Source of the DNA: a virus
Lineage: Duplodnaviria > Heunggongvirae > Uroviricota > Caudoviricetes
Virus record (IMG/VR): IMGVR_UViG_3300012983_000030
Reading direction: 5' to 3' (one strand)
DNA: 64,000 nt
Shown: piece by piece, positions 2,406 to 35,550 of the stretch
Layout: each line of letters begins with the position of its first letter
Position numbering within the stretch: the first letter of the stretch is position 1
Made by a program: the position numbers and the translations under genes
The notes under the pieces: generated by a model
What the model saw: only the letters and a program-made list of their open reading frames with translations
What the model was told of the DNA's origin: nothing
Databases searched by the model: none

Positions 2406-4400
2406 TTATGCGCCAAGAGTTTCTACAGAAACTGTAGTATCTGCACCCATAACTGTAGTATTCAAAAGAATAACTTCAGCTGTATATGTAGGCCATAAGT
2501 AAATATCAATAACTAATTGATTATTTGCAATTACTTGTGGAGTATTATTTGACTCATCGCAGACAACTTGGAATTTTTGAATACCTTCTGCAGAAAGGAT
2601 TGTATTCAAGAAGCTATTGAATTGCAATGTAATTTGCATACGTGTATATGCTGTATTATTTTCAAATAAATGATATCTAGCAGCATCACGTAATACAGTT
2701 TCAATATAAATAACTGTTCTTGCTACGTTAATTCTATCTAAAGCAGATGGTTTAGCTTGTAATGTTCTTTGACCCCAGTTAACATAACCAGCACCTGGAT
2801 TACGAATAATACAGTTGATTTGGTTATCTGTATATAATGTGCCACCTTGAACATTATCATAATATTGAGTTAAACCAGTAGGTGATACAGCAGCTGCGGC
2901 TAATACACCACGATTTAAACCAGCAGGAGCAACCCAAGGCTCATATGCACCCATAATTTTAGCAACATATGCAGAAGGACACATTACGAAATTTGCACGA
3001 CCTTGAACTGAGTCATATGTTTTAACCCAAGGTGAACTTAATGCACCACGATAAGTATTAAAACCTTGAAGGTTCTTTCTCCAATCGATAGCATTTTCCA
3101 TAGAAGTTTCTGTCATTGGAACATCAAATAAACAGAAACAGTCACGACGGTGTTCGGCAATTTCTAACATTTTAGATTGATATGCAACATTACCTTTATT
3201 TACATAACCACTATTCATAAGTAATGAAACATTAACTTGTGAACGGTCACGGAATAATTCCCATGCATTACATAAATCAACATATTTTTTAGCTGCATCT
3301 GTCCAAATACCAGATTGACCATTTTCTAAAGCAATGTTTTCACCAAATGTTGGAACAACTGCTGCGTCTGGATCAATATCTAAGAAATTGTTATTTACAA
3401 ATACTTGAATATAATTAGAAGTACCATTTACAACGTCTTCTAAAAACATTGAATTACCATAATTATCTTGTGCATGATATAATGTACAATATTCAAATGT
3501 TTCAAGAGTTTGCATTACACGACCAATTTTTTCTTTAACTACAATACTAAATGTAGTTTCGTTTGTTTCTGGATAACGACCAACTCTTGCATTTGAATCT
3601 ACAACAGATTCGATTGCACCATCAACAAAATAAGAAATAGTTCCTTGAGTACGATCTTCATTTACTGAAAAATCATATACTGTAAATGTGCCATTCAAAG
3701 CACTTTCTTTTTCTACTGGATCAGTAACTTTCATTCTAGAAACAGCAATTTTAGAATTTTCTTCTAATCCATCTACAACTTCATAAGGAACAGTAACAGT
3801 AACTAAAGTTCTTGGTGTTTCACCAGATTCAACTTCAAGTTTAGTAGGAGCTAAAACGGCATAAGCTCTGTTTTCATTAATTGTACTATCAGCAATAGAA
3901 ATAAATAATTTTCTATTATTTGGATCAGTAGCTGTAACAATAAACGCTGATTCAAAATCTTCTGGTTCAAATAAACCTGAAGCTGAACCAGAGTCACGTG
4001 AATTTTCAGCAGCTGTTATTTCTTCATACCAGTAACCAGCATTTGTAGGTCTTGGTTTATCAGCTGTGTTTACTAAAACAGTAGCTGCGGCCCATACTGC
4101 ATCATTTTCACGATTTTCTGGTAAATCATCTGGATCACCAACTGGAACAACACGTACAAATTGATGTTCTGCAATAGATTCTGAAGCAACTGCTAATGAA
4201 TAACCAGCGTAACCATAACGAGAACTTAATGTACCAAAACGATCAATAAAACCTTGTAATGATGATAATAAAGTTGGTTTAAATACTGGACCATATTCTG
4301 CTTCACCAACATAAGCACATGCAGTAGTAGCATTATCTGCAACTACTCCACTAAGGTCTCTAATGCTTGGGTAAACGCCCGGAAATTTGTAGCTTGCCAT
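2406..4400 (-). CDS. contractile tail sheath protein (T4 gp18-like)
   Basis: Conserved C-terminal motifs shared with T4 gp18: PAGLNRG (T4 has PAGYNRG), FDRINV, and RVVCDxxNNTPxVI followed by a FYIQP-like segment. N-terminal FPGVY-type start. Shine-Dalgarno AAGGA. Confidence 0.85.
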   Translation of the reverse strand: MASYKFPGVYPSIRDLSGVVADNATTACAYVGEAEYGPVFKPTLLSSLQGFIDRFGTLSSRYGYAGYSLAVASESIAEHQFVRVVPVGDPDDLPENRENDAVWAAATVLVNTADKPRPTNAGYWYEEITAAENSRDSGSASGLFEPEDFESAFIVTATDPNNRKLFISIADSTINENRAYAVLAPTKLEVESGETPRTLVTVTVPYEVVDGLEENSKIAVSRMKVTDPVEKESALNGTFTVYDFSVNEDRTQGTISYFVDGAIESVVDSNARVGRYPETNETTFSIVVKEKIGRVMQTLETFEYCTLYHAQDNYGNSMFLEDVVNGTSNYIQVFVNNNFLDIDPDAAVVPTFGENIALENGQSGIWTDAAKKYVDLCNAWELFRDRSQVNVSLLMNSGYVNKGNVAYQSKMLEIAEHRRDCFCLFDVPMTETSMENAIDWRKNLQGFNTYRGALSSPWVKTYDSVQGRANFVMCPSAYVAKIMGAYEPWVAPAGLNRGVLAAAAVSPTGLTQYYDNVQGGTLYTDNQINCIIRNPGAGYVNWGQRTLQAKPSALDRINVARTVIYIETVLRDAARYHLFENNTAYTRMQITLQFNSFLNTILSAEGIQKFQVVCDESNNTPQVIANNQLVIDIYLWPTYTAEVILLNTTVMGADTTVSVETLGA

Positions 4401-11531: not shown

Positions 11532-12221
11532 TTACTTGTTATATTTATTGAGTATTTTATCTATTAAGGCCCATCGTTCTTCTTTTTTTACTTTTTTACA
11601 TAAATTTGTATCGTGTGATCTATAATAGTATAAAACTTTATGAATACTTGCTATTGGCATTTGCTTTAATATTTGTAAATGAAAATCAAAATCTTCACAC
11701 ATTTTTAAGGATTCATCAATAGCACAAGTTTTTAATAACGTTTGTCTAAACATCATTCCACCTGCATAACCGGTACCCGCTAATTTTTTATTGTTAACAA
11801 TGTCAGCAAAATCCCAAATTTCAGGTCTAGTAATATGTTGAGAAGTATTTCCAAATCTTTTTAATTCACAACATACTGCGCCAATCATTTCATTATTTTC
11901 TAAAAATTCTAATTCTTCTTTAATTAAATCTTTATGAAAAATATCATCACTACCTAATCTAACAATATACTTACCTTTAGCCAATGAAAATGCTTTGTTT
12001 ACAGATTTATTCATACCGAGATTTTTTTCATTTTTATATAATTTGATTTTATTTGATAACTTTGTAATATTATCATAATTTATATTTGGAGACGCATCAT
12101 TAATACAAATTATTTCAATATTTTGATATGATTGTCGTAATAAAGATTTTAAGCATTCATTTAAATAATTAAGTTTTATTTCATATAAAGTTAAAATTAT
12201 TGATACTAAAGGTTTTTGCAT
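11532..12221 (-). CDS. family 2 glycosyltransferase
   Basis: N-terminal GT-A signature: VSIILTLYE...CL.S...Q....EIICINDAS. Confidence 0.6.
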   Translation of the reverse strand: MQKPLVSIILTLYEIKLNYLNECLKSLLRQSYQNIEIICINDASPNINYDNITKLSNKIKLYKNEKNLGMNKSVNKAFSLAKGKYIVRLGSDDIFHKDLIKEELEFLENNEMIGAVCCELKRFGNTSQHITRPEIWDFADIVNNKKLAGTGYAGGMMFRQTLLKTCAIDESLKMCEDFDFHLQILKQMPIASIHKVLYYYRSHDTNLCKKVKKEERWALIDKILNKYNK

Positions 12222-21664: not shown

Positions 21665-21749
21665 GGATTCGTGGCGAAATGGGTAAATACAAGGGATTTA
21701 AAATTCCTTGGTCATCATGACTTTATGAGTTCAACTCTTATCGAATCCA
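21665..21749 (+). tRNA. tRNA-Leu(TAA): tRNA-Leu (anticodon TAA), type II
   Basis: Acceptor GGATTCG/CGAATCC, anticodon loop TTTAAAA, variable-arm hairpin GTCATCATGAC. Confidence 0.55.
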
Positions 21750-21821
21750 CTAAAAAACTAGTACAAATCTAATATAATCGCCATTTTAATAGTTCTGTAC
21801 AGTAAATAAAGGAGTATTAAA

Positions 21822-22754
21822 ATGAAAATAAATGAAGATCTTATAAATAAAGCTTTGGAAGTAGCAACATCTCAAAAAGAATTTTATAGAATAATTGGTT
21901 ATAAAAATGGAAATGTTGGAAGTAATACAGATAAACGCTATAAAAAATTTTTGTTAGATACAAAAAATATTAATATAATTGAATACTTTTTAGAAAAACA
22001 AAAATTGTTAAATAAAAGTATAAATCAAGAAGAAAAAATATGTAAAAATTGTGGAAAAATATTTGTTGGTAAATATTCAAAAAATTGTTCTGGAGAATTT
22101 TGTTGTTTAAAATGCAGTAGAATATATGTTGCCAATTTAAATAAAACAGAAAAAAGAGAAAAAATACGTTTAGGATTGAAAAGACATTATGATAAATTAA
22201 TTGATTTTATACCAAAATATCAATCTAAAATTAAACCTTTTTATAAAAAATGTATTATTTGTGGTAAAGAATTTAAAACAATAAAAGCTAAAACAAAAAC
22301 ATGTAGTCATAGTTGTGCTTCAAAATTGGCATATAAAGTTTCAAAAGAAAAATATCAAGATTGGAAATTTATACAAGGAGGTTTTAGAGAAAAATCTTCA
22401 AGAGGTAAACAAGGTTGGTATAAAAATATTTTTTGTAATTCTCAATGGGAATTGGCTTTTGTAATATATTGTTTAGATCATAATATAAAAATAGAAAGAA
22501 ATAAAGAAAACTTTATATATTTTTATAAAAATAAACAACATTTATTTTATCCTGATTTTATTGTTAATGGAAAATTAGTTGAAATAAAAAATTATTGGCG
22601 TGAAATAAATGATATTAAAATAAATGCAGTTAAACAAATAAAAGATATAGATATTTTATATACAAAAGAGTTAGAATATGTTTTTGATTATATCTTAAAT
22701 AAATATGGAAAAGATAAAAGACATATTTATGAATTATATGAAAAAACATTATAG
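21822..22754 (+). CDS. zinc-finger protein, probably a homing-endonuclease-like gene embedded in the tRNA array
   Basis: Several CxxC pairs. The N-terminal region resembles that of the HNH gene at 34849. Its position between tRNAs is typical of mobile endonucleases. Confidence 0.4.
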   Translation: MKINEDLINKALEVATSQKEFYRIIGYKNGNVGSNTDKRYKKFLLDTKNINIIEYFLEKQKLLNKSINQEEKICKNCGKIFVGKYSKNCSGEFCCLKCSRIYVANLNKTEKREKIRLGLKRHYDKLIDFIPKYQSKIKPFYKKCIICGKEFKTIKAKTKTCSHSCASKLAYKVSKEKYQDWKFIQGGFREKSSRGKQGWYKNIFCNSQWELAFVIYCLDHNIKIERNKENFIYFYKNKQHLFYPDFIVNGKLVEIKNYWREINDIKINAVKQIKDIDILYTKELEYVFDYILNKYGKDKRHIYELYEKTL

Positions 22755-22866: not shown

Positions 22867-22939
22867 ACACTCATAGGCTAATTGGACAAACCCAAAGTCT
22901 TCTAAACTTTTATTACAGGTTCGAGTCCTGTTGAGTGTG
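22867..22939 (+). tRNA. tRNA-Arg(TCT): tRNA-Arg (anticodon TCT)
   Basis: Acceptor ACACTCA/TGAGTGT, anticodon arm AAAGT-CTTCTAA-ACTTT, T-arm ACAGG-TTCGAGT-CCTGT. Confidence 0.55.
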
Positions 22940-23228
22940 CTAGCATTTTATTCCCAGTGCGAGGGATTAAGATTAATTGAGTAAATCTAACACACGAATG
23001 ATAGAGGCAACCACCGAAAGAGCTAATAGGAATTTTCTTAGGTAAGTCGTGATATCCGAAAGATTTATTGTCCTAACTCTGCCTAACGCTGATTCGCACC
23101 TTGTACATAAAGTATCAATTAATCGTTTATATAGGATGTCATATTTCGTAAGAATATGAGGGTCAGGATTAAGTTCACAAAAGAGATAAAGTAGATGTTA
23201 ACCTCTACCTATCCTATATTTTTTAGTT

Positions 23229-23304
23229 GGGGGTATAGCTCAGCTGGGAGAGCACCTGCTTTGCAAGCAGGGGGTCAGGAGTTCGAACCTCCTTACCTCC
23301 ACCA
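23229..23304 (+). tRNA. tRNA-Ala(TGC): tRNA-Ala (anticodon TGC)
   Basis: Matches the GGGGGTATAGCTCAGCTGGGAGAGC consensus, G3:U70 pair, anticodon loop TTTGCAA, CCA encoded. Confidence 0.8.
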
Positions 23305-23311
23305 TTTTATA

Positions 23312-23438
23312 AGAGGAGCTCTACTATGTCAAATTAGTATTTCTGCAGAAAGAAAGTTTGATTAAGAAGACGGGAAGTAGAGGGAAATTCTAATATCTGC
23401 AGGCATTAGTTGTGTGTGGTTCGACTCCACCTCCTCTA
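23312..23438 (+). ncRNA. tRNA-like gene of about 127 nt: perfect acceptor halves and a canonical T-arm, but about 50 extra nt inside
   Basis: 5' AGAGGAG pairs with 3' CTCCTCT; T-arm GTGGTTCGACTCCAC; a CTGCAG...CTGCAG segment lies between them. Too long for any standard tRNA. Confidence 0.35.
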
Positions 23439-23452
23439 GCCGTTTTTTTTTT

Positions 23453-23643: not shown

Positions 23644-23735
23644 TGGGGGTCGGTAAAACTATCCTTACAGATGCTAGCTATAGTTTGGACGTTTACATAG
23701 GTTGCGCAATGACACCGATATAGCTACCCCCGCCA
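23644..23735 (+). ncRNA. non-canonical tRNA-like RNA of about 92 nt (GGGGGT...ACCCCCGCCA ends, internal 8-bp stem, no TTCGA T-loop)
   Basis: Closing helix GGGGGT/ACCCCC with a CCA-like 3' end; inner stem TAGCTATA/TATAGCTA. It ends 2 nt before tRNA-Glu. Confidence 0.3.
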
Positions 23736-25303: not shown

Positions 25304-25419
25304 CGAGAAGTAGCTCAGTCTGGTAGAGCACGTATTTGTATTTAGTCCTAAATACGTACAGCATTATATTTTTTTGCTTGGTAAGCACGTGGTCATTGGT
25401 TCGAATCCAATCTTCTCGC
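25304..25419 (+). ncRNA. tRNA-like gene with a canonical 5' half and T-arm but an extra internal segment of about 42 nt
   Basis: 5' CGAGAAG-TA-GCTCAGTCTGGTAGAGC, T-arm ATTGGTTCGAATCCAAT, acceptor 3' CTTCTCG. The insert holds a 7-bp hairpin (CGTATTT/AAATACG) and a T-run. AGCACGT recurs on both sides of the insert. Confidence 0.4.
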
Positions 25420-25968: not shown

Positions 25969-26108
25969 TTTTTAATTTTAACTTCTTGTGGTGTAAGCGA
26001 TAGGTTTAATAATACTATAGCTCTTTTATTAAATCCTAACGGTAGTAGCTTAATTCCCACTAAGGTTTAGGTACAAGTGCAAGTCTTGTCAAGAAGAACA
26101 TTTTTTAT

Positions 26109-26188
26109 GGGGTGTTAAATCTGGTTCTAGAACAGATTGCTTAGGATGTAGGTCCAAGATAACGTGTGAAAATCATGTGGCCCCGCCA
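26109..26188 (+). ncRNA. non-canonical tRNA-like or structured RNA of about 80 nt (GGGGTGT...GGCCCCGCCA)
   Basis: Terminal helix with a CCA-like end followed by a T-run; internal palindromic hairpin AATCTGGTTCTAGAACAGATT; no canonical T-loop. Confidence 0.25.
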
Positions 26189-26277
26189 TTTTTTATAATA
26201 TTAAATATAATATTGTTTTACTTTCTAAATAATGTATATTAAATAATAAAAGTTGAAATTATTTAGAAAGGTTTAAA

Positions 26278-26700: not shown

Positions 26701-28266
26701 ATGAATACTTATATTGATGTTTTAGGTTTAGATAAAAATCACACTGAAATTAAACCAGCTCGTGTAAAGACAAATAGTTTTATCAAAGCTCAAACTAATA
26801 AAACGTTTACTGAAAACGGGGCTTTGACTAATGCTTCTTCTTTATCTAAAATTGTTGATTGGTTTTTTCATGGAGCTGCTCTTCGTAAAGCTGAAGAAAA
26901 ACGTATTTTAAATTTATTCACAGATGCATTTAAAGAGAATCCTACTAGTGCTTTACGTATTTTATTTTATATTCGTGATATTCGCGGTGGACAAGGCGAA
27001 CGTCGTACTTTTAGAATTTGTTTGCAATGGCTTGGAAATTATGAAGCAGAATGGTTATCAAAAAATCTATCATTGATTTTTGAATATGGTAGATGGGATG
27101 ATTACTTTGTATTATTTGATACTAAAATTGCTAATACAGTAATTGATTTCATTGGAAGCCAACTTGAAAAAGATTTGAAACATCATGTTAATAATGAAAT
27201 AAGTAATCTTTCGTTGTTAGCAAAATGGATGCCTTCTGAAGCAAGTGTTAAGTATGAAACAAAAAAATATTATAATGCTTTACTTAAAACTGGTAAATTT
27301 GGTACAAAACGTAATTATCGTAAAGCAATCAGTATTTTAAGAAAAGACTTAGATATTGTTGAAAGAAAATTATCTGCTAAAGAATACTCTAATATTGATT
27401 ATGAAAAATTACCTTCATATGCAATGTTAAAATATTCTAAGCCTCGTGTTTATAATGGTATGGAAGGTAGCTTTTTAAGAAATGATAAAAAGCGTTTTTC
27501 TGAATACTTAGATAAAGTAAATAAAGGTGAAACAAAAATAAACGCTAAGACTTTATATCCATACGATTTAGCACGTGAATATACTGATAATCTTTATTGG
27601 AAGTGTACTTATAAAAAATCTGAGTTAAATGCTACTATTGAAGCTCAATGGAAAGCATTACCAGATTATGTTCCAGAAATAAACGGATTAGTAGTATGTG
27701 ATACTTCTGGTTCAATGAATGGTTTGCCTATGGCAGTAGCTATGTCTTTAGCAGTTTATATTGCAGAAAGAAATAAATCTGAAATTTGGAAAAATTATGT
27801 AATACCATTTTCATCTTCAGCTAAATTTATGGAAGTATCTGGTGAAACACTTCTTGAAAAATTAATATCAATATATACTGGTGATTGTAGTAATACAAAT
27901 TTACAAGCAGTATTTGATTTAATTTTAAATAGAGCTAAGGCAGCAAATGTATTGGCAGAAGACATGCCAAAACAATTGTTGATTATAAGTGATATGGAAT
28001 TTGATTCTACTTCATTTGGATATACAAATTATGAAAAAATTAAACATAAGTATAAAGAGAGTGGATATGTTTTACCAAAATTAGTTTGGTGGAATGTAGA
28101 CAGTAGAAATACACAAACTCCAGTTACTATTGATGATAAAAATAATTTGTTATTGTCTGGATCATCTCCTTCTTGCTTAAAAGTAGCTTTATCTGGAGAG
28201 TTTGATATAGTTGAAACAATAAATAAAATTATTGAACAAGAACGATATAGTTGTATAAATTATTAA
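26701..28266 (+). CDS. DUF2828-like protein with a C-terminal von Willebrand A (MIDAS) domain
   Basis: MIDAS motif VVCDTSGSMNG; N-terminal region ILFYIRDIRGGQGERR; 521 aa. Confidence 0.5.
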   Translation: MNTYIDVLGLDKNHTEIKPARVKTNSFIKAQTNKTFTENGALTNASSLSKIVDWFFHGAALRKAEEKRILNLFTDAFKENPTSALRILFYIRDIRGGQGERRTFRICLQWLGNYEAEWLSKNLSLIFEYGRWDDYFVLFDTKIANTVIDFIGSQLEKDLKHHVNNEISNLSLLAKWMPSEASVKYETKKYYNALLKTGKFGTKRNYRKAISILRKDLDIVERKLSAKEYSNIDYEKLPSYAMLKYSKPRVYNGMEGSFLRNDKKRFSEYLDKVNKGETKINAKTLYPYDLAREYTDNLYWKCTYKKSELNATIEAQWKALPDYVPEINGLVVCDTSGSMNGLPMAVAMSLAVYIAERNKSEIWKNYVIPFSSSAKFMEVSGETLLEKLISIYTGDCSNTNLQAVFDLILNRAKAANVLAEDMPKQLLIISDMEFDSTSFGYTNYEKIKHKYKESGYVLPKLVWWNVDSRNTQTPVTIDDKNNLLLSGSSPSCLKVALSGEFDIVETINKIIEQERYSCINY

Positions 28267-35477: not shown

Positions 35478-35550
35478 ATACCCGTGAGTCAAGTGAAGCA
35501 TACGGTTTCCATCATCGTAAGAGTAGGACATCTTCCTGCCGGGTATGCCA
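35478..35550 (+). ncRNA. tRNA-sized (73 nt) non-canonical tRNA-like gene
   Basis: Perfect acceptor ATACCCG/CGGGTAT plus GCCA. The anticodon-like arm ACGGT-TTCCATC-ATCGT has a CCA triplet with T at position 37. The T-arm GTAGG-ACATCTT-CCTGC lacks the TTCGA consensus, and the D-arm is unclear. Confidence 0.3.

What the first reader, a model, noticed from the sequence alone, without database searches (positions are those of the whole stretch)
23312..23438. tRNA-like gene with perfect acceptor halves and T-arm, interrupted by about 50 nt
AGAGGAG at the 5' end pairs exactly with CTCCTCT at the 3' end, and a canonical T-arm (GTGGTTCGACTCCAC) lies just before the 3' half. Even so, the element is 127 nt, far longer than any standard tRNA. 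The extra segment contains CTGCAG...CTGCAG. Bacterial and phage tRNA introns are group I introns of 200 nt or more, so a 50-nt insertion is not a known intron class. It could be a small unreported intron, a tRNA with a mobile mini-insertion, or a tRNA-derived regulatory RNA.
Basis: partly seen in the sequence, partly recalled or inferred. Interest (0 to 1): 0.65.

Follow-up and report, generated by a model that had tools for sequence, protein, structure and literature searches.

The report
tRNA-shaped non-decoding RNA in phage tRNA array
The 127-nt element is a real, conserved gene for a tRNA-shaped small RNA that has the two ends and T-arm of a tRNA but no anticodon loop, so it most likely is a tRNA mimic cut out of a phage tRNA array (like the long-mysterious RNAC of phage T4) rather than a tRNA interrupted by a new kind of intron.

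Summary
The sequence features are real. AGAGGAG (23312-18) pairs with CTCCTCT (23431-37), the T-arm GTGG-TTCGACT-CCAC lies at 23416-30, and CTGCAG occurs twice. Under strict criteria, elements like this turn up in 2 of 500 shuffles.

The window is a T4-like gut/rumen phage with 23 tRNAs. Element 1 sits 7 nt after tRNA-Ala and 14 nt before tRNA-Ser. It is an optional cassette: absent from a close relative (L024), but 95-97% identical in two other lineages where coding DNA is only 77-85% identical.

It is not an interrupted tRNA:
- Neither ARAGORN nor Rfam calls it.
- It lacks U8, A14 and the D-loop GG.
- An 8-bp hairpin with a UGCA tetraloop occupies the anticodon-arm position.
- No single deletion restores a tRNA.

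It is also not a member of the T4 RNAC family (covariance model: 2.9 bits) or of the YrlA/Y RNAs (no CGAA motif). It does share their design, and the same array encodes a Ro60-fold protein.

The best reading is a tRNA-processed, non-decoding tRNA mimic of unknown target. A genuinely interrupted tRNA-Thr does exist 2 kb downstream, at 25304-25419.

The parts
23305..23311 (+). 5' spacer TTTTATA between the CCA end of tRNA-Ala and the element. It is part of the cassette missing in L024.
   Evidence: L024 reads ACCA-ATTTTTT-GGAATCA, whereas the window has ACCA-TTTTATA-[element]-GCCG-T10-GGAATCA.
23312..23318 (+). 5' acceptor-like strand AGAGGAG
   Evidence: 7/7 Watson-Crick pairs with 23431-23437. 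Invariant in all three variants.
23319..23325 (+). 5' strand CUCUACU of a 7-bp stem in the D-arm position
   Evidence: Pairs with AGUAGAG at 23376-23382 in the MFE and RNAalifold structures. One variant breaks the innermost pair (G71>U).
23326..23375 (+). 50-nt domain enclosed by that stem. It contains the first CTGCAG (23343-23348) and ends in GGGA (23372-23375), which resembles the 3' part of a D-loop.
   Evidence: Only 2 of 50 positions vary among the three variants (positions 24 and 26). The internal fold is AU-rich and weakly predicted.
23376..23382 (+). 3' strand AGUAGAG of the D-position stem
23390..23409 (+). Hairpin CUAAUAUC-UGCA-GGCAUUAG in the anticodon-arm position. It has an 8-bp stem and a tetraloop, holds the second CTGCAG (23397-23402), and has no 7-nt anticodon loop.
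   Evidence: RNAalifold. Variant changes at positions 82, 92 and 93 keep or create pairs (A-U>G.U, U.G>U-A, A.C>A-U). It is the MFE in L011 and L025.
23416..23430 (+). T-arm: GTGG / TTCGACT / CCAC
   Evidence: Canonical T-loop with G53, T54, T55, C56, A58 and C61. Invariant in all variants.
23431..23438 (+). 3' acceptor-like strand CTCCTCT plus discriminator A. It is followed by GCC G T10 rather than CCA.
   Evidence: 16 of the 18 ordinary tRNAs scanned encode CCA; this element does not.
23439..23452 (+). 3' spacer GCCG + T10 up to tRNA-Ser (starts 23453). It belongs to the cassette absent in L024.
   Evidence: The scan found no terminator-like site here.
26701..28266 (+). Ro60-fold protein (DUF2828 + DUF7788/vWA) in the same tRNA array. 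It is a candidate protein partner only.
   Evidence: AF2 model with pLDDT 86. The only full-length Foldseek hits are Ro autoantigen 1yvr (E 1.7e-8), phage phiLo Ro60 9l5y and TROVE 9kop. There is no sequence-level link to TROVE.

Best explanation
Window 23312-23438 encodes a roughly 127-nt tRNA-shaped small RNA that cannot decode.

Anatomy (predicted from sequence and three near-identical variants; supported only by one-sided base changes): a four-way junction made of
- a 7-bp acceptor-like stem;
- a 7-bp stem in the D-arm position, enclosing a conserved 50-nt domain that ends in GGGA;
- an 8-bp hairpin with a UGCA tetraloop where the anticodon arm should be;
- a canonical T-arm stacked on the acceptor stem.

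It is one optional cassette of the phage's tRNA array, lying 7 nt after tRNA-Ala and 14 nt before tRNA-Ser on the same strand.

Inferred mechanism. The element is transcribed with the neighbouring tRNAs. RNase P releases its 5' end, using the acceptor/T-arm minihelix. RNase P cleavage of the downstream tRNA-Ser plus 3' trimming releases its 3' end, possibly followed by host CCA addition. It then persists as a stable tRNA mimic that occupies or recruits a tRNA-binding factor without entering decoding.

The most concrete candidate partner is the Ro60-fold protein encoded 3.3 kb downstream in the same array, which would make the element a Y-RNA-like tether. A decoy for a host tRNA-targeting enzyme is the alternative. 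Expression, processing and partner are all inferred, not shown.
For: The element is real and non-random: the strict scan finds 2 in the window against a mean of 0.006 in 500 shuffles.

It is conserved over its whole length. It is 94.6% identical in L011-L017 and 96.9% in L025. Window and L025 share only 77-85% nucleotide identity in coding DNA, the adjacent spacer 23147-23214 is unalignable, and RNase H is 69% identical.

All 8 variable sites lie outside the acceptor stem and T-arm. Three of them keep or create pairs in hairpin 79-98.

It is not a decoding tRNA. ARAGORN and Rfam make no call, and it has no 7-nt anticodon loop, U8, A14 or D-loop GG.

It behaves as an array cassette, being precisely absent from L024 between tRNA-Ala and tRNA-Ser.

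The same design recurs. T4 RNAC has a terminal stem, a long hairpin, a hairpin and a T-arm. L019:2221-2332 and L023:9835-9941 have fully different, mutually complementary stems. None of these long elements encodes CCA.

A Ro60-fold protein is encoded in the array. Phage and bacterial Ro60 genes are known to sit next to tRNA-mimicking Y RNAs (PMC4201824; PMC12135203; PMC7824862).
Against: There is no expression or processing data.

The fold as a whole is not more stable than shuffles (z = -1.5 to -1.8).

With only three near-identical variants there is no double compensatory change in any pair. Three variant changes break predicted pairs (positions 24, 71, 91).

Element 1 diverges faster than its flanking tRNAs between the window and L011 (7/128 versus about 1/390 differences).

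The Y-RNA hallmark CGAA/GNCGAA is absent, and there is no Rfam Y_RNA or YrlA hit.

A close relative does without the element (L024), and the Ro60-like gene is present in relatives that lack it (L003, L020). So there is no co-occurrence signal.
Confidence: 0.55

Rival explanations
1. An interrupted tRNA. The two CUGCAG copies pair to form the anticodon stem, CUAAUAU (23390-96) is the anticodon loop, and positions 38-78 (23349-23389) are a short intervening sequence removed by an unknown non-group-I mechanism. This would parallel the interrupted tRNA-Thr at 25304-25419.
For: CUGCAG:CUGCAG gives 6 perfect pairs, and the loop has C32, U33 and A37. For the window variant this model is as stable as the hairpin model. 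The same array does contain a tRNA with a 42-nt insertion just 5' of its anticodon loop, and that tRNA also lacks CCA.
Against: The 'spliced' product is rejected by ARAGORN in all three variants, and no deletion gives a normal tRNA. The Rfam tRNA model gives no hit at E<=10, against 46.8 bits for element 2. U8, A14 and G18G19 are absent, the variable region would be 14 unstructured nt, and the T-stem has 4 bp. The anticodon would be AAU in the window but AGU in L011 and L025. The model is 3.5-4.5 kcal/mol worse in L011 and L025, and G91>A in L011 breaks the stem. The insert shares no motif with element 2's insert, such as its hairpin followed by CAGC.
Confidence: 0.08
2. A decaying tRNA relic: a duplicated tRNA gene that lost its D and anticodon arms and now persists only as a processing spacer or junk in a fast-rearranging tRNA array, with no function of its own.
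For: It is dispensable, since L024 lacks it. The array holds other degenerate tRNA-like pieces, such as 35478-35550 and 23645-23735. It diverges faster than the flanking tRNAs between the window and L011. The fold z-score is not significant.
Against: It is 96.9% identical between genomes whose coding DNA is 77-85% identical and whose neighbouring spacer is unalignable. That includes the 50-nt domain, where only 2 of 50 sites vary. The acceptor stem and T-arm are intact in all copies. An analogous design is maintained independently in L019 and L023, with stems that differ in sequence but keep their complementarity.
Confidence: 0.17
3. A bona fide Y RNA, meaning a member of the Y/YrlA family that binds the phage Ro60-like protein through its terminal stem and tethers it to a host nuclease such as PNPase.
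For: Its size of 127 nt falls within 80-130 nt, and it has a 5'-3' terminal stem plus a T-arm, like D. radiodurans Yrn1, whose tRNA-like part is unpermuted (PMC4201824). A Ro60-fold protein is encoded in the same array. Phage Ro60 with adjacent Yrl RNAs is documented.
Against: There is no CGAA/GNCGAAN0-1G motif and no Rfam Y_RNA or YrlA hit. The topology is not the permuted one of YrlA. The element lies 3.3 kb from the gene with many genes between, not adjacent to it. Relatives with the Ro60-like gene lack the element (L003, L020, L024). The window protein is only Ro60-like by fold, not by sequence.
Confidence: 0.12

Closest known systems
Phage T4 RNAC (species 1 RNA, rnaC), the 139-nt stable RNA of the T4 tRNA cluster
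   Same: Both are encoded inside the tRNA array of a T4-type phage, on the tRNA strand, next to tRNAs. Both have a canonical T-arm directly followed by a strand that pairs with the 5' region, a long hairpin, and a second hairpin just before the T-arm. The lengths are similar, and RNAC's function is also unknown (PMC3014915, PMC12685909).
   Different: There is no sequence homology. The RNAC blocks CGGTTCGAGGA, TAGCGTCAACTA and CGTTCCGTACAA are absent from element 1. The RNAC covariance model scores 161 bits on T4 but only 2.9 bits on element 1, and that on the T-arm alone. The RNAC terminal stem carries two conserved U.U mismatches, whereas element 1's stem is perfect.
Bacterial and phage Y RNAs (YrlA, D. 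radiodurans Yrn1, phiLo Yrl1/Yrl2) that partner Ro60
   Same: These are ncRNAs of about 100 nt with a terminal stem and a tRNA-like module that includes a T-arm. They are encoded near a Ro60/TROVE gene, some are RNase P and CCA-adding substrates, and they do not decode. A Ro60-fold gene lies in the same array here.
   Different: Element 1 has no CGAA/GNCGAA motif and no Rfam hit. The YrlA tRNA-like domain is circularly permuted with a closed acceptor stem, while element 1 has free acceptor ends. Element 1 is not adjacent to the Ro60-like gene, and there is no co-occurrence across relatives.
Intron-containing tRNA genes (bacterial/phage group I introns; archaeal bulge-helix-bulge introns)
   Same: Both are tRNA-array elements longer than a tRNA with intact acceptor halves and a T-arm.
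   Different: The extra sequence of about 50 nt is far below group I size, and there is no Rfam intron hit. Removing any single segment does not restore a cloverleaf with an anticodon loop. Element 2 at 25304-25419 does behave like an interrupted tRNA.
tRNA-like domain of tmRNA
   Same: In both, the acceptor stem is formed by the 5' and 3' ends, a T-arm is present, and the D and anticodon arms are replaced by other RNA.
   Different: ARAGORN makes no tmRNA call. There is no G3.U70, no encoded CCA and no tag reading frame, and at 127 nt it is far shorter than the roughly 350 nt of tmRNA.

Membership tests
Canonical tRNA (Rfam RF00005 / ARAGORN) | Scores above threshold with tRNA covariance or heuristic models | tested here: not met
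   ARAGORN makes no call, with or without introns. RF00005 gives no hit at gathering or at E<=10. The best clan hit is tRNA-Sec at 13.7 bits on the 3' half only.
Canonical tRNA (Rfam RF00005 / ARAGORN) | 7-bp acceptor stem plus a T-arm with the T54-T55-C56-R57-A58 loop | tested here: met
   The T-stem has 4 rather than 5 Watson-Crick pairs.
Canonical tRNA (Rfam RF00005 / ARAGORN) | 5-bp anticodon stem with a 7-nt loop (U33, purine 37), and D-arm universals U8, A14 and G18G19 | tested here: not met
   An 8-bp hairpin with a 4-nt loop occupies the position. C8, T14 and no GG in the candidate D-loop.
Intron-containing tRNA | Removal of one contiguous segment restores a canonical cloverleaf with a consistent anticodon | tested here: not met
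   The deletion scan gives only defective 'gc' loops. The 38-78 deletion product is not called, and the putative anticodon is AAU versus AGU among variants. Positive control: all four element 2 homologs give tRNA-Thr.
Group I intron in tRNA | Intron of 200 nt or more with the group I core (P3-P9) | tested here: not met
   Only about 50 extra nt are present, and there is no Rfam Intron_gpI hit.
T4 RNAC (species 1 RNA) family | Located in the tRNA array of a T4-type phage, with a T-arm plus terminal stem and two internal hairpins | tested here: met
   (Gp23 in relative L003).
T4 RNAC (species 1 RNA) family | Matches the family's sequence and structure profile (conserved blocks CGGTTCGAGGA, TAGCGTCAACTA, CGTTCCGTACAA) | tested here: not met
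   Model R1, built from 5 diverse rnaC genes, scores 161 bits on T4 and 2.9 bits on the T-arm only of element 1 with filters off.
Y RNA / YrlA | 80-130 nt with a 5'-3' terminal stem | tested here: met
   127 nt, with a 7-bp terminal stem coaxial with a further 7-bp stem. Criteria taken from PMC4201824.
Y RNA / YrlA | Conserved Ro60-binding motif (CGAA / GNCGAAN0-1G) in the stem or bulge | tested here: not met
   There is no CGAA anywhere in 23312-23439.
Y RNA / YrlA | Match to Rfam Y_RNA (RF00019) or YrlA (RF02553) | tested here: not met
   No hit at gathering or at E<=10.
Y RNA / YrlA | Encoded next to a Ro60/TROVE gene | tested here: inconclusive
   A Ro60-fold gene lies 3.3 kb downstream in the same array, but it is not adjacent. 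Relatives with the gene lack the element.
Y RNA / YrlA | Physically bound by Ro60 | not testable with these tools
   This needs RIP, EMSA or co-purification.
tmRNA | tRNA-like domain plus a tag-peptide ORF, G3.U70 and CCA | tested here: not met
   ARAGORN makes no tmRNA call. The third pair is A3-U70, and no CCA is encoded.

The most novel reading that the evidence does not exclude
Element 1 and the interrupted tRNA-Thr 2 kb downstream are both substrates of an undescribed, non-group-I, probably protein-dependent RNA excision-ligation pathway in a bacterial virus. For element 1, this pathway would remove 23349-23389, just 5' of a CUAAUAU loop, and so produce a highly unusual tRNA with an A34 anticodon. 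Evidence does not exclude this. The CUGCAG:CUGCAG stem is perfect and is energetically equal to the hairpin model in the window variant. Both elements lack CCA, and both carry their extra sequence immediately 5' of the (putative) anticodon loop.
Probability: 0.07. Interest if true: 0.85.

Novelty: new variant of a known kind. Interest (0 to 1): 0.45.

Why it matters
T4's RNAC and RNAD have been known for about 50 years without a function. This work shows that unrelated T4-type phages of gut and rumen carry non-homologous RNAs built to the same plan: an acceptor stem and T-arm with a non-tRNA body. These RNAs sit as exchangeable cassettes in tRNA arrays and are conserved about as well as tRNAs.

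That argues the design itself is selected, as a tRNA-processing handle plus a variable effector body. It also supplies natural presence/absence variants (window versus L024) for testing function.

The co-resident Ro60-fold protein offers a testable partner. The surrounding array also holds an interrupted tRNA-Thr and several other uncalled tRNA-like RNAs, so standard tRNA annotation misses a layer of phage RNA biology here.

Tried and rejected
1. Canonical tRNA or tRNA with an intron. ARAGORN (with and without intron mode), Rfam at gathering and at E<=10, a single-deletion scan, and explicit removal of 38-78 all failed.

2. Homology to T4 RNAC. I built a covariance model from T4, IME523, KM16, KaAlpha and NM4.3. 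It found no match beyond the T-arm.

3. Y RNA/YrlA membership. There is no CGAA motif and no Rfam hit.

4. Relatives in public phage genomes and IMG/VR. blastn against 50,697 phage records hit only the flanking tRNAs. Three exact or degenerate pattern scans and one protein-guided scan of viral contigs found nothing. Relatives came only from ENA, Logan and JGI metagenome contigs.

5. Homology between element 1 and the L019/L023 elements. MAFFT aligns only the CTGCA motif and the T-arm, and the element 1 covariance model does not hit them. I treat them as a separate family of the same design.

6. A weak hit of the element 1 model at window 2561-2680 (22.9 bits). It lies inside the tail-sheath ORF on the other strand and has many broken pairs, so I rejected it as spurious.

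7. A sequence-level link between the window's DUF2828 protein and TROVE. BLASTP, hhalign and two PDB profile searches were all negative. Only the fold search was positive.

8. Promoter or terminator signals specific to the element. None exceeded shuffle expectation.

9. RNA ligase, kinase or CCA-adding enzymes in the window. None were found among 28 ORFs scanned.

10. My first shuffle test was too permissive, so I replaced it with a strict one.

Full report
OBSERVATION

- AGAGGAG at 23312-23318 and its exact complement CTCCTCT at 23431-23437.
- A T-arm, GTGG/TTCGACT/CCAC, at 23416-23430, abutting the 3' strand.
- CTGCAG at 23343-48 and 23397-402.
- 127 nt in total, to discriminator A23438.

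Two corrections apply. The T-stem has four Watson-Crick pairs, because the fifth would be U.C. No CCA is encoded; the 3' flank is GCC-G-T10.

A loose scan that allowed G.U pairs is not rare by chance, averaging 1.4 hits per shuffled window. With the features actually present, the real window holds two such long elements. Five hundred dinucleotide shuffles average 0.006, and 2 of 500 have at least one.

CONTEXT

The window carries 23 ARAGORN tRNAs, all on the + strand between 21159 and 35626. Related contigs are 240-kb T4-type phages (Gp23, DnaB, RNase H, IMPDH) from gut and rumen metagenomes. Nothing close exists in deposited phage genomes or in IMG/VR.

The element lies 7 nt after tRNA-Ala (23229-23304) and 14 nt before tRNA-Ser (starting 23453).

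IS IT A tRNA?

No. The evidence is:
- ARAGORN does not call it, even in intron mode.
- Rfam's tRNA model gives no hit even at E<=10 in a 171-nt search. The same model gives 46.8 bits to a different long element at 25304-25419.
- It has C8, U14 and no GG in any candidate D-loop.
- A scan of all single deletions of 35-61 nt yields no normal tRNA. The only end-to-end calls have a defective six-nucleotide loop.

COMPARATIVE DATA

I reached relatives by walking from the adjacent RNase H gene and a homing-endonuclease-like ORF into ENA, Logan and JGI contigs.

The element is present at 94.6% identity in L011-L017 and at 96.9% in L025. It is precisely absent from L024, a 241-kb contig that is 92-96% identical overall. 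There, tRNA-Ala is followed by ATTTTTT and then tRNA-Ser. So the element is an optional cassette of the array, consisting of a spacer, the gene and a T-rich spacer.

Window and L025 share only 77-85% nucleotide identity across coding DNA and 69% amino-acid identity in RNase H. The spacer 23147-23214 is unalignable, yet tRNA-Ala plus the element are 96-97% identical. That pattern fits purifying selection on the whole element, including the 'extra' 50 nt, where only 2 of 50 sites vary. The conserved block of roughly 650 nt is small enough that recent exchange cannot be fully excluded.

All eight variable sites (positions 24, 26, 71, 82, 91-93 and 100) lie outside the acceptor stem and T-arm.

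STRUCTURE

RNAalifold on the three variants gives a four-way junction:
- an acceptor stem, 1-7/120-126;
- a 7-bp stem, 8-14/65-71, enclosing a 50-nt domain that ends in GGGA, like the 3' part of a D-loop;
- an 8-bp hairpin, 79-86/91-98, with a UGCA tetraloop in the anticodon-arm position;
- the T-arm.

Changes at positions 82, 92 and 93 keep or create pairs in the hairpin. Changes at 24, 71 and 91 break predicted pairs. There is no double compensatory change, so support for the structure is modest.

In the window variant the two models are equal. Overall fold stability is not significantly better than shuffles (z about -1.5).

I tested this explicitly. Pairing the two CUGCAG copies and removing 38-78 leaves a CUAAUAU loop. 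The product is still not accepted as a tRNA. Its anticodon would be AAU in the window but AGU in L011 and L025. It would also have an unstructured 14-nt variable region and no D-arm universals. I give this reading about 8%.

A GENUINELY INTERRUPTED tRNA NEARBY

The element at 25304-25419 has a perfect D-arm, T-arm and acceptor stem, plus 42 extra nt (25334-25375). Four distinct homologs (window/L024, L003/L020, L041 and L023) show the following:
- compensatory changes at all 7 acceptor pairs and 3 T-stem pairs;
- a covarying internal hairpin followed by a conserved CAGC;
- a YU-GGU/UGU-AA loop, in which both anticodons read Thr;
- an anticodon stem that becomes a perfect or near-perfect 5 bp (CGU+GC/GCACG, ACG+GG/CCCGU, CGU+GC/GCACG, CG+AGG/CUUCG) only if the insertion between nucleotides 29 and 30 is removed.

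ARAGORN's intron mode offers another reading, tRNA-Stop(UUA) with a 44-nt intron, but that reading does not carry over to the homologs.

I found no published equivalent.

COMPARISON WITH KNOWN FAMILIES

T4 RNAC (species 1 RNA) sits in the T4 tRNA cluster. It ends in CCGGG-TTCGAAT-CCCGG followed by a strand that pairs with its 5' region, and it folds into a terminal stem, a long hairpin, a hairpin and a T-arm. That is the same plan as element 1. Its function is still unknown.

The family, however, has strongly conserved blocks that are absent here. A covariance model built from five diverse rnaC genes scores 161 bits on T4 but only 2.9 bits on the T-arm of element 1, with filters off. Element 1 therefore works like RNAC but is not a member of that family.

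In relatives L019 and L023, just upstream of RNase H, there is another pair of elements (112 and 107 nt). They have a 7-bp acceptor stem, three internal hairpins whose sequences differ but remain complementary, a CUGCAA motif and a T-arm, and they lack CCA. The element 1 model does not hit them, and neither does Rfam. They form a second family of the same design.

Ro60 CONTEXT

The window's 521-aa DUF2828/DUF7788 protein (26701-28266) has no sequence-level link to TROVE. Its AlphaFold model (pLDDT 86) has only three full-length structural matches: Xenopus Ro (1yvr, E 1.7e-8), Ro60 of Thermus phage phiLo (9l5y) and a TROVE domain (9kop). Every other hit covers the vWA domain alone. Relative L018 carries a bona fide TROVE protein at the equivalent place.

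Ro60 genes of bacteria and phages are known to lie next to Y RNAs that mimic tRNA. Element 1 meets the size and terminal-stem criteria and has a T-arm like Yrn1. It lacks the CGAA/GNCGAA motif, has no Rfam Y_RNA or YrlA hit, is not adjacent to the gene, and does not co-occur with it across relatives. The link is a lead, not a finding.

VERDICT

Element 1 is a real, conserved, accessory gene for a tRNA-shaped, non-decoding RNA. It is most likely excised from the tRNA precursor by tRNA-processing enzymes and acts as a tRNA mimic. It is not an interrupted tRNA. It is a new variant of a known kind (T4 RNAC-like or Y-RNA-like tRNA mimics).

The anatomy rests on secondary-structure prediction from three near-identical sequences, with the T4 and L019/L023 comparisons giving analogy only. 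Expression, processing, partner and function are inferred.

Noticed in passing
window 25304-25419 (insertion 25334-25375; anticodon GGT 25380-25382): This is a tRNA-Thr(GGU) gene interrupted between nucleotides 29 and 30 of the anticodon stem by a conserved 41-47 nt insertion (a hairpin, CAGC, then a U-rich tail), and it encodes no CCA. Four distinct homologs (L003/L020, L041, L023, L024) show compensatory changes in all 7 acceptor pairs. Removing the insertion gives a near-perfect 5-bp anticodon stem in each, and the anticodon stays Thr (GGU or UGU). It is too short for a group I intron, I found no published equivalent, and it is potentially more novel than the assigned finding.
   Followed up: yes
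window 26701-28266: This DUF2828/DUF7788 protein has a Ro60 (TROVE + vWA) fold by AlphaFold and Foldseek (1yvr, 9l5y, 9kop) but no detectable sequence similarity to TROVE. It sits inside the tRNA array. The family has more than 5,500 homologs in metagenomes.
   Followed up: yes
window 23645-23735; L003:5139-5230; L018:4940-5027; L024:2773-2871; L025:2776-2871: A 91-nt non-tRNA element lies between tRNA-Gly and tRNA-Glu. It has a 6-bp terminal stem (GGGGGU/ACCCCC) followed by an encoded GCCA, plus conserved GUCGGUAAAAC and CACCGAUAUAG blocks. It is 78-100% conserved across relatives and is not called by ARAGORN or Rfam. L003:5235-5372 and L018:4600-4760 look like paralogs.
   Followed up: partly
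window 22941-23146: A non-coding block of about 205 nt after tRNA-Arg is 96% identical to L025, against a 77-85% coding background. Its ends are complementary (GUGCGA...UCGCAC) and it contains three CGAA motifs. It may be another structured RNA.
   Followed up: no
L019:2221-2332 and L023:9835-9941: This is a second family of tRNA-shaped, anticodon-less, CCA-less RNAs directly upstream of RNase H. It has a 7-bp acceptor stem (GGCCGYG), three hairpins that differ in sequence but keep pairing, a single-stranded CUGCAA, and a T-arm. Fold z-scores are -3.2 and -3.8.
   Followed up: partly
window 35478-35550: A 73-nt element between tRNA-His and tRNA-Trp has a 7-bp acceptor stem plus GCCA, a 6-bp stem with the 7-nt loop UUCCAUC (anticodon CCA), and a non-canonical 5-nt T-loop. 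No tool calls it. It looks like a degenerate or atypical tRNA-Trp.
   Followed up: partly
L019:2046-2118 and L003:4963-5040: This conserved element has an 8-bp terminal stem (AGGCAGAU/AUCUGCCU), a D-arm-like CAGC...GCUG and a CCAGACUUUUAAUCUG anticodon-arm-like hairpin, but no T-arm. It looks like a T-armless tRNA.
   Followed up: no
window 21822-22754: A 310-aa ORF inside the tRNA array has homologs that carry NUMOD3, endonuclease and Vsr-like domains and occur in varied contexts. It is probably a homing endonuclease and may drive the cassette shuffling seen in these arrays.
   Followed up: no
window 26105-26200 (within gap 25969-26277): The sequence AUGGGGUG...GUGGCCCCGCCA followed by a U-run resembles the ends of the 23645-23735 element and lies about 500 nt upstream of the Ro60-like gene.
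   Followed up: no
window 21665-21750 and 22867-22940: Two otherwise ordinary tRNAs (Leu-UAA and Arg-UCU) lack an encoded CCA, whereas 16 of the 18 tRNAs scanned encode it. Every long non-canonical element also lacks it.
   Followed up: no
L003:11887-11974 and 11982-12075: ARAGORN calls a tRNA-Ser with anticodon ACU and a 94-nt tRNA-Ile(UAU) next to the Ro60-like gene of a relative. Both the anticodon and the length are unusual.
   Followed up: no
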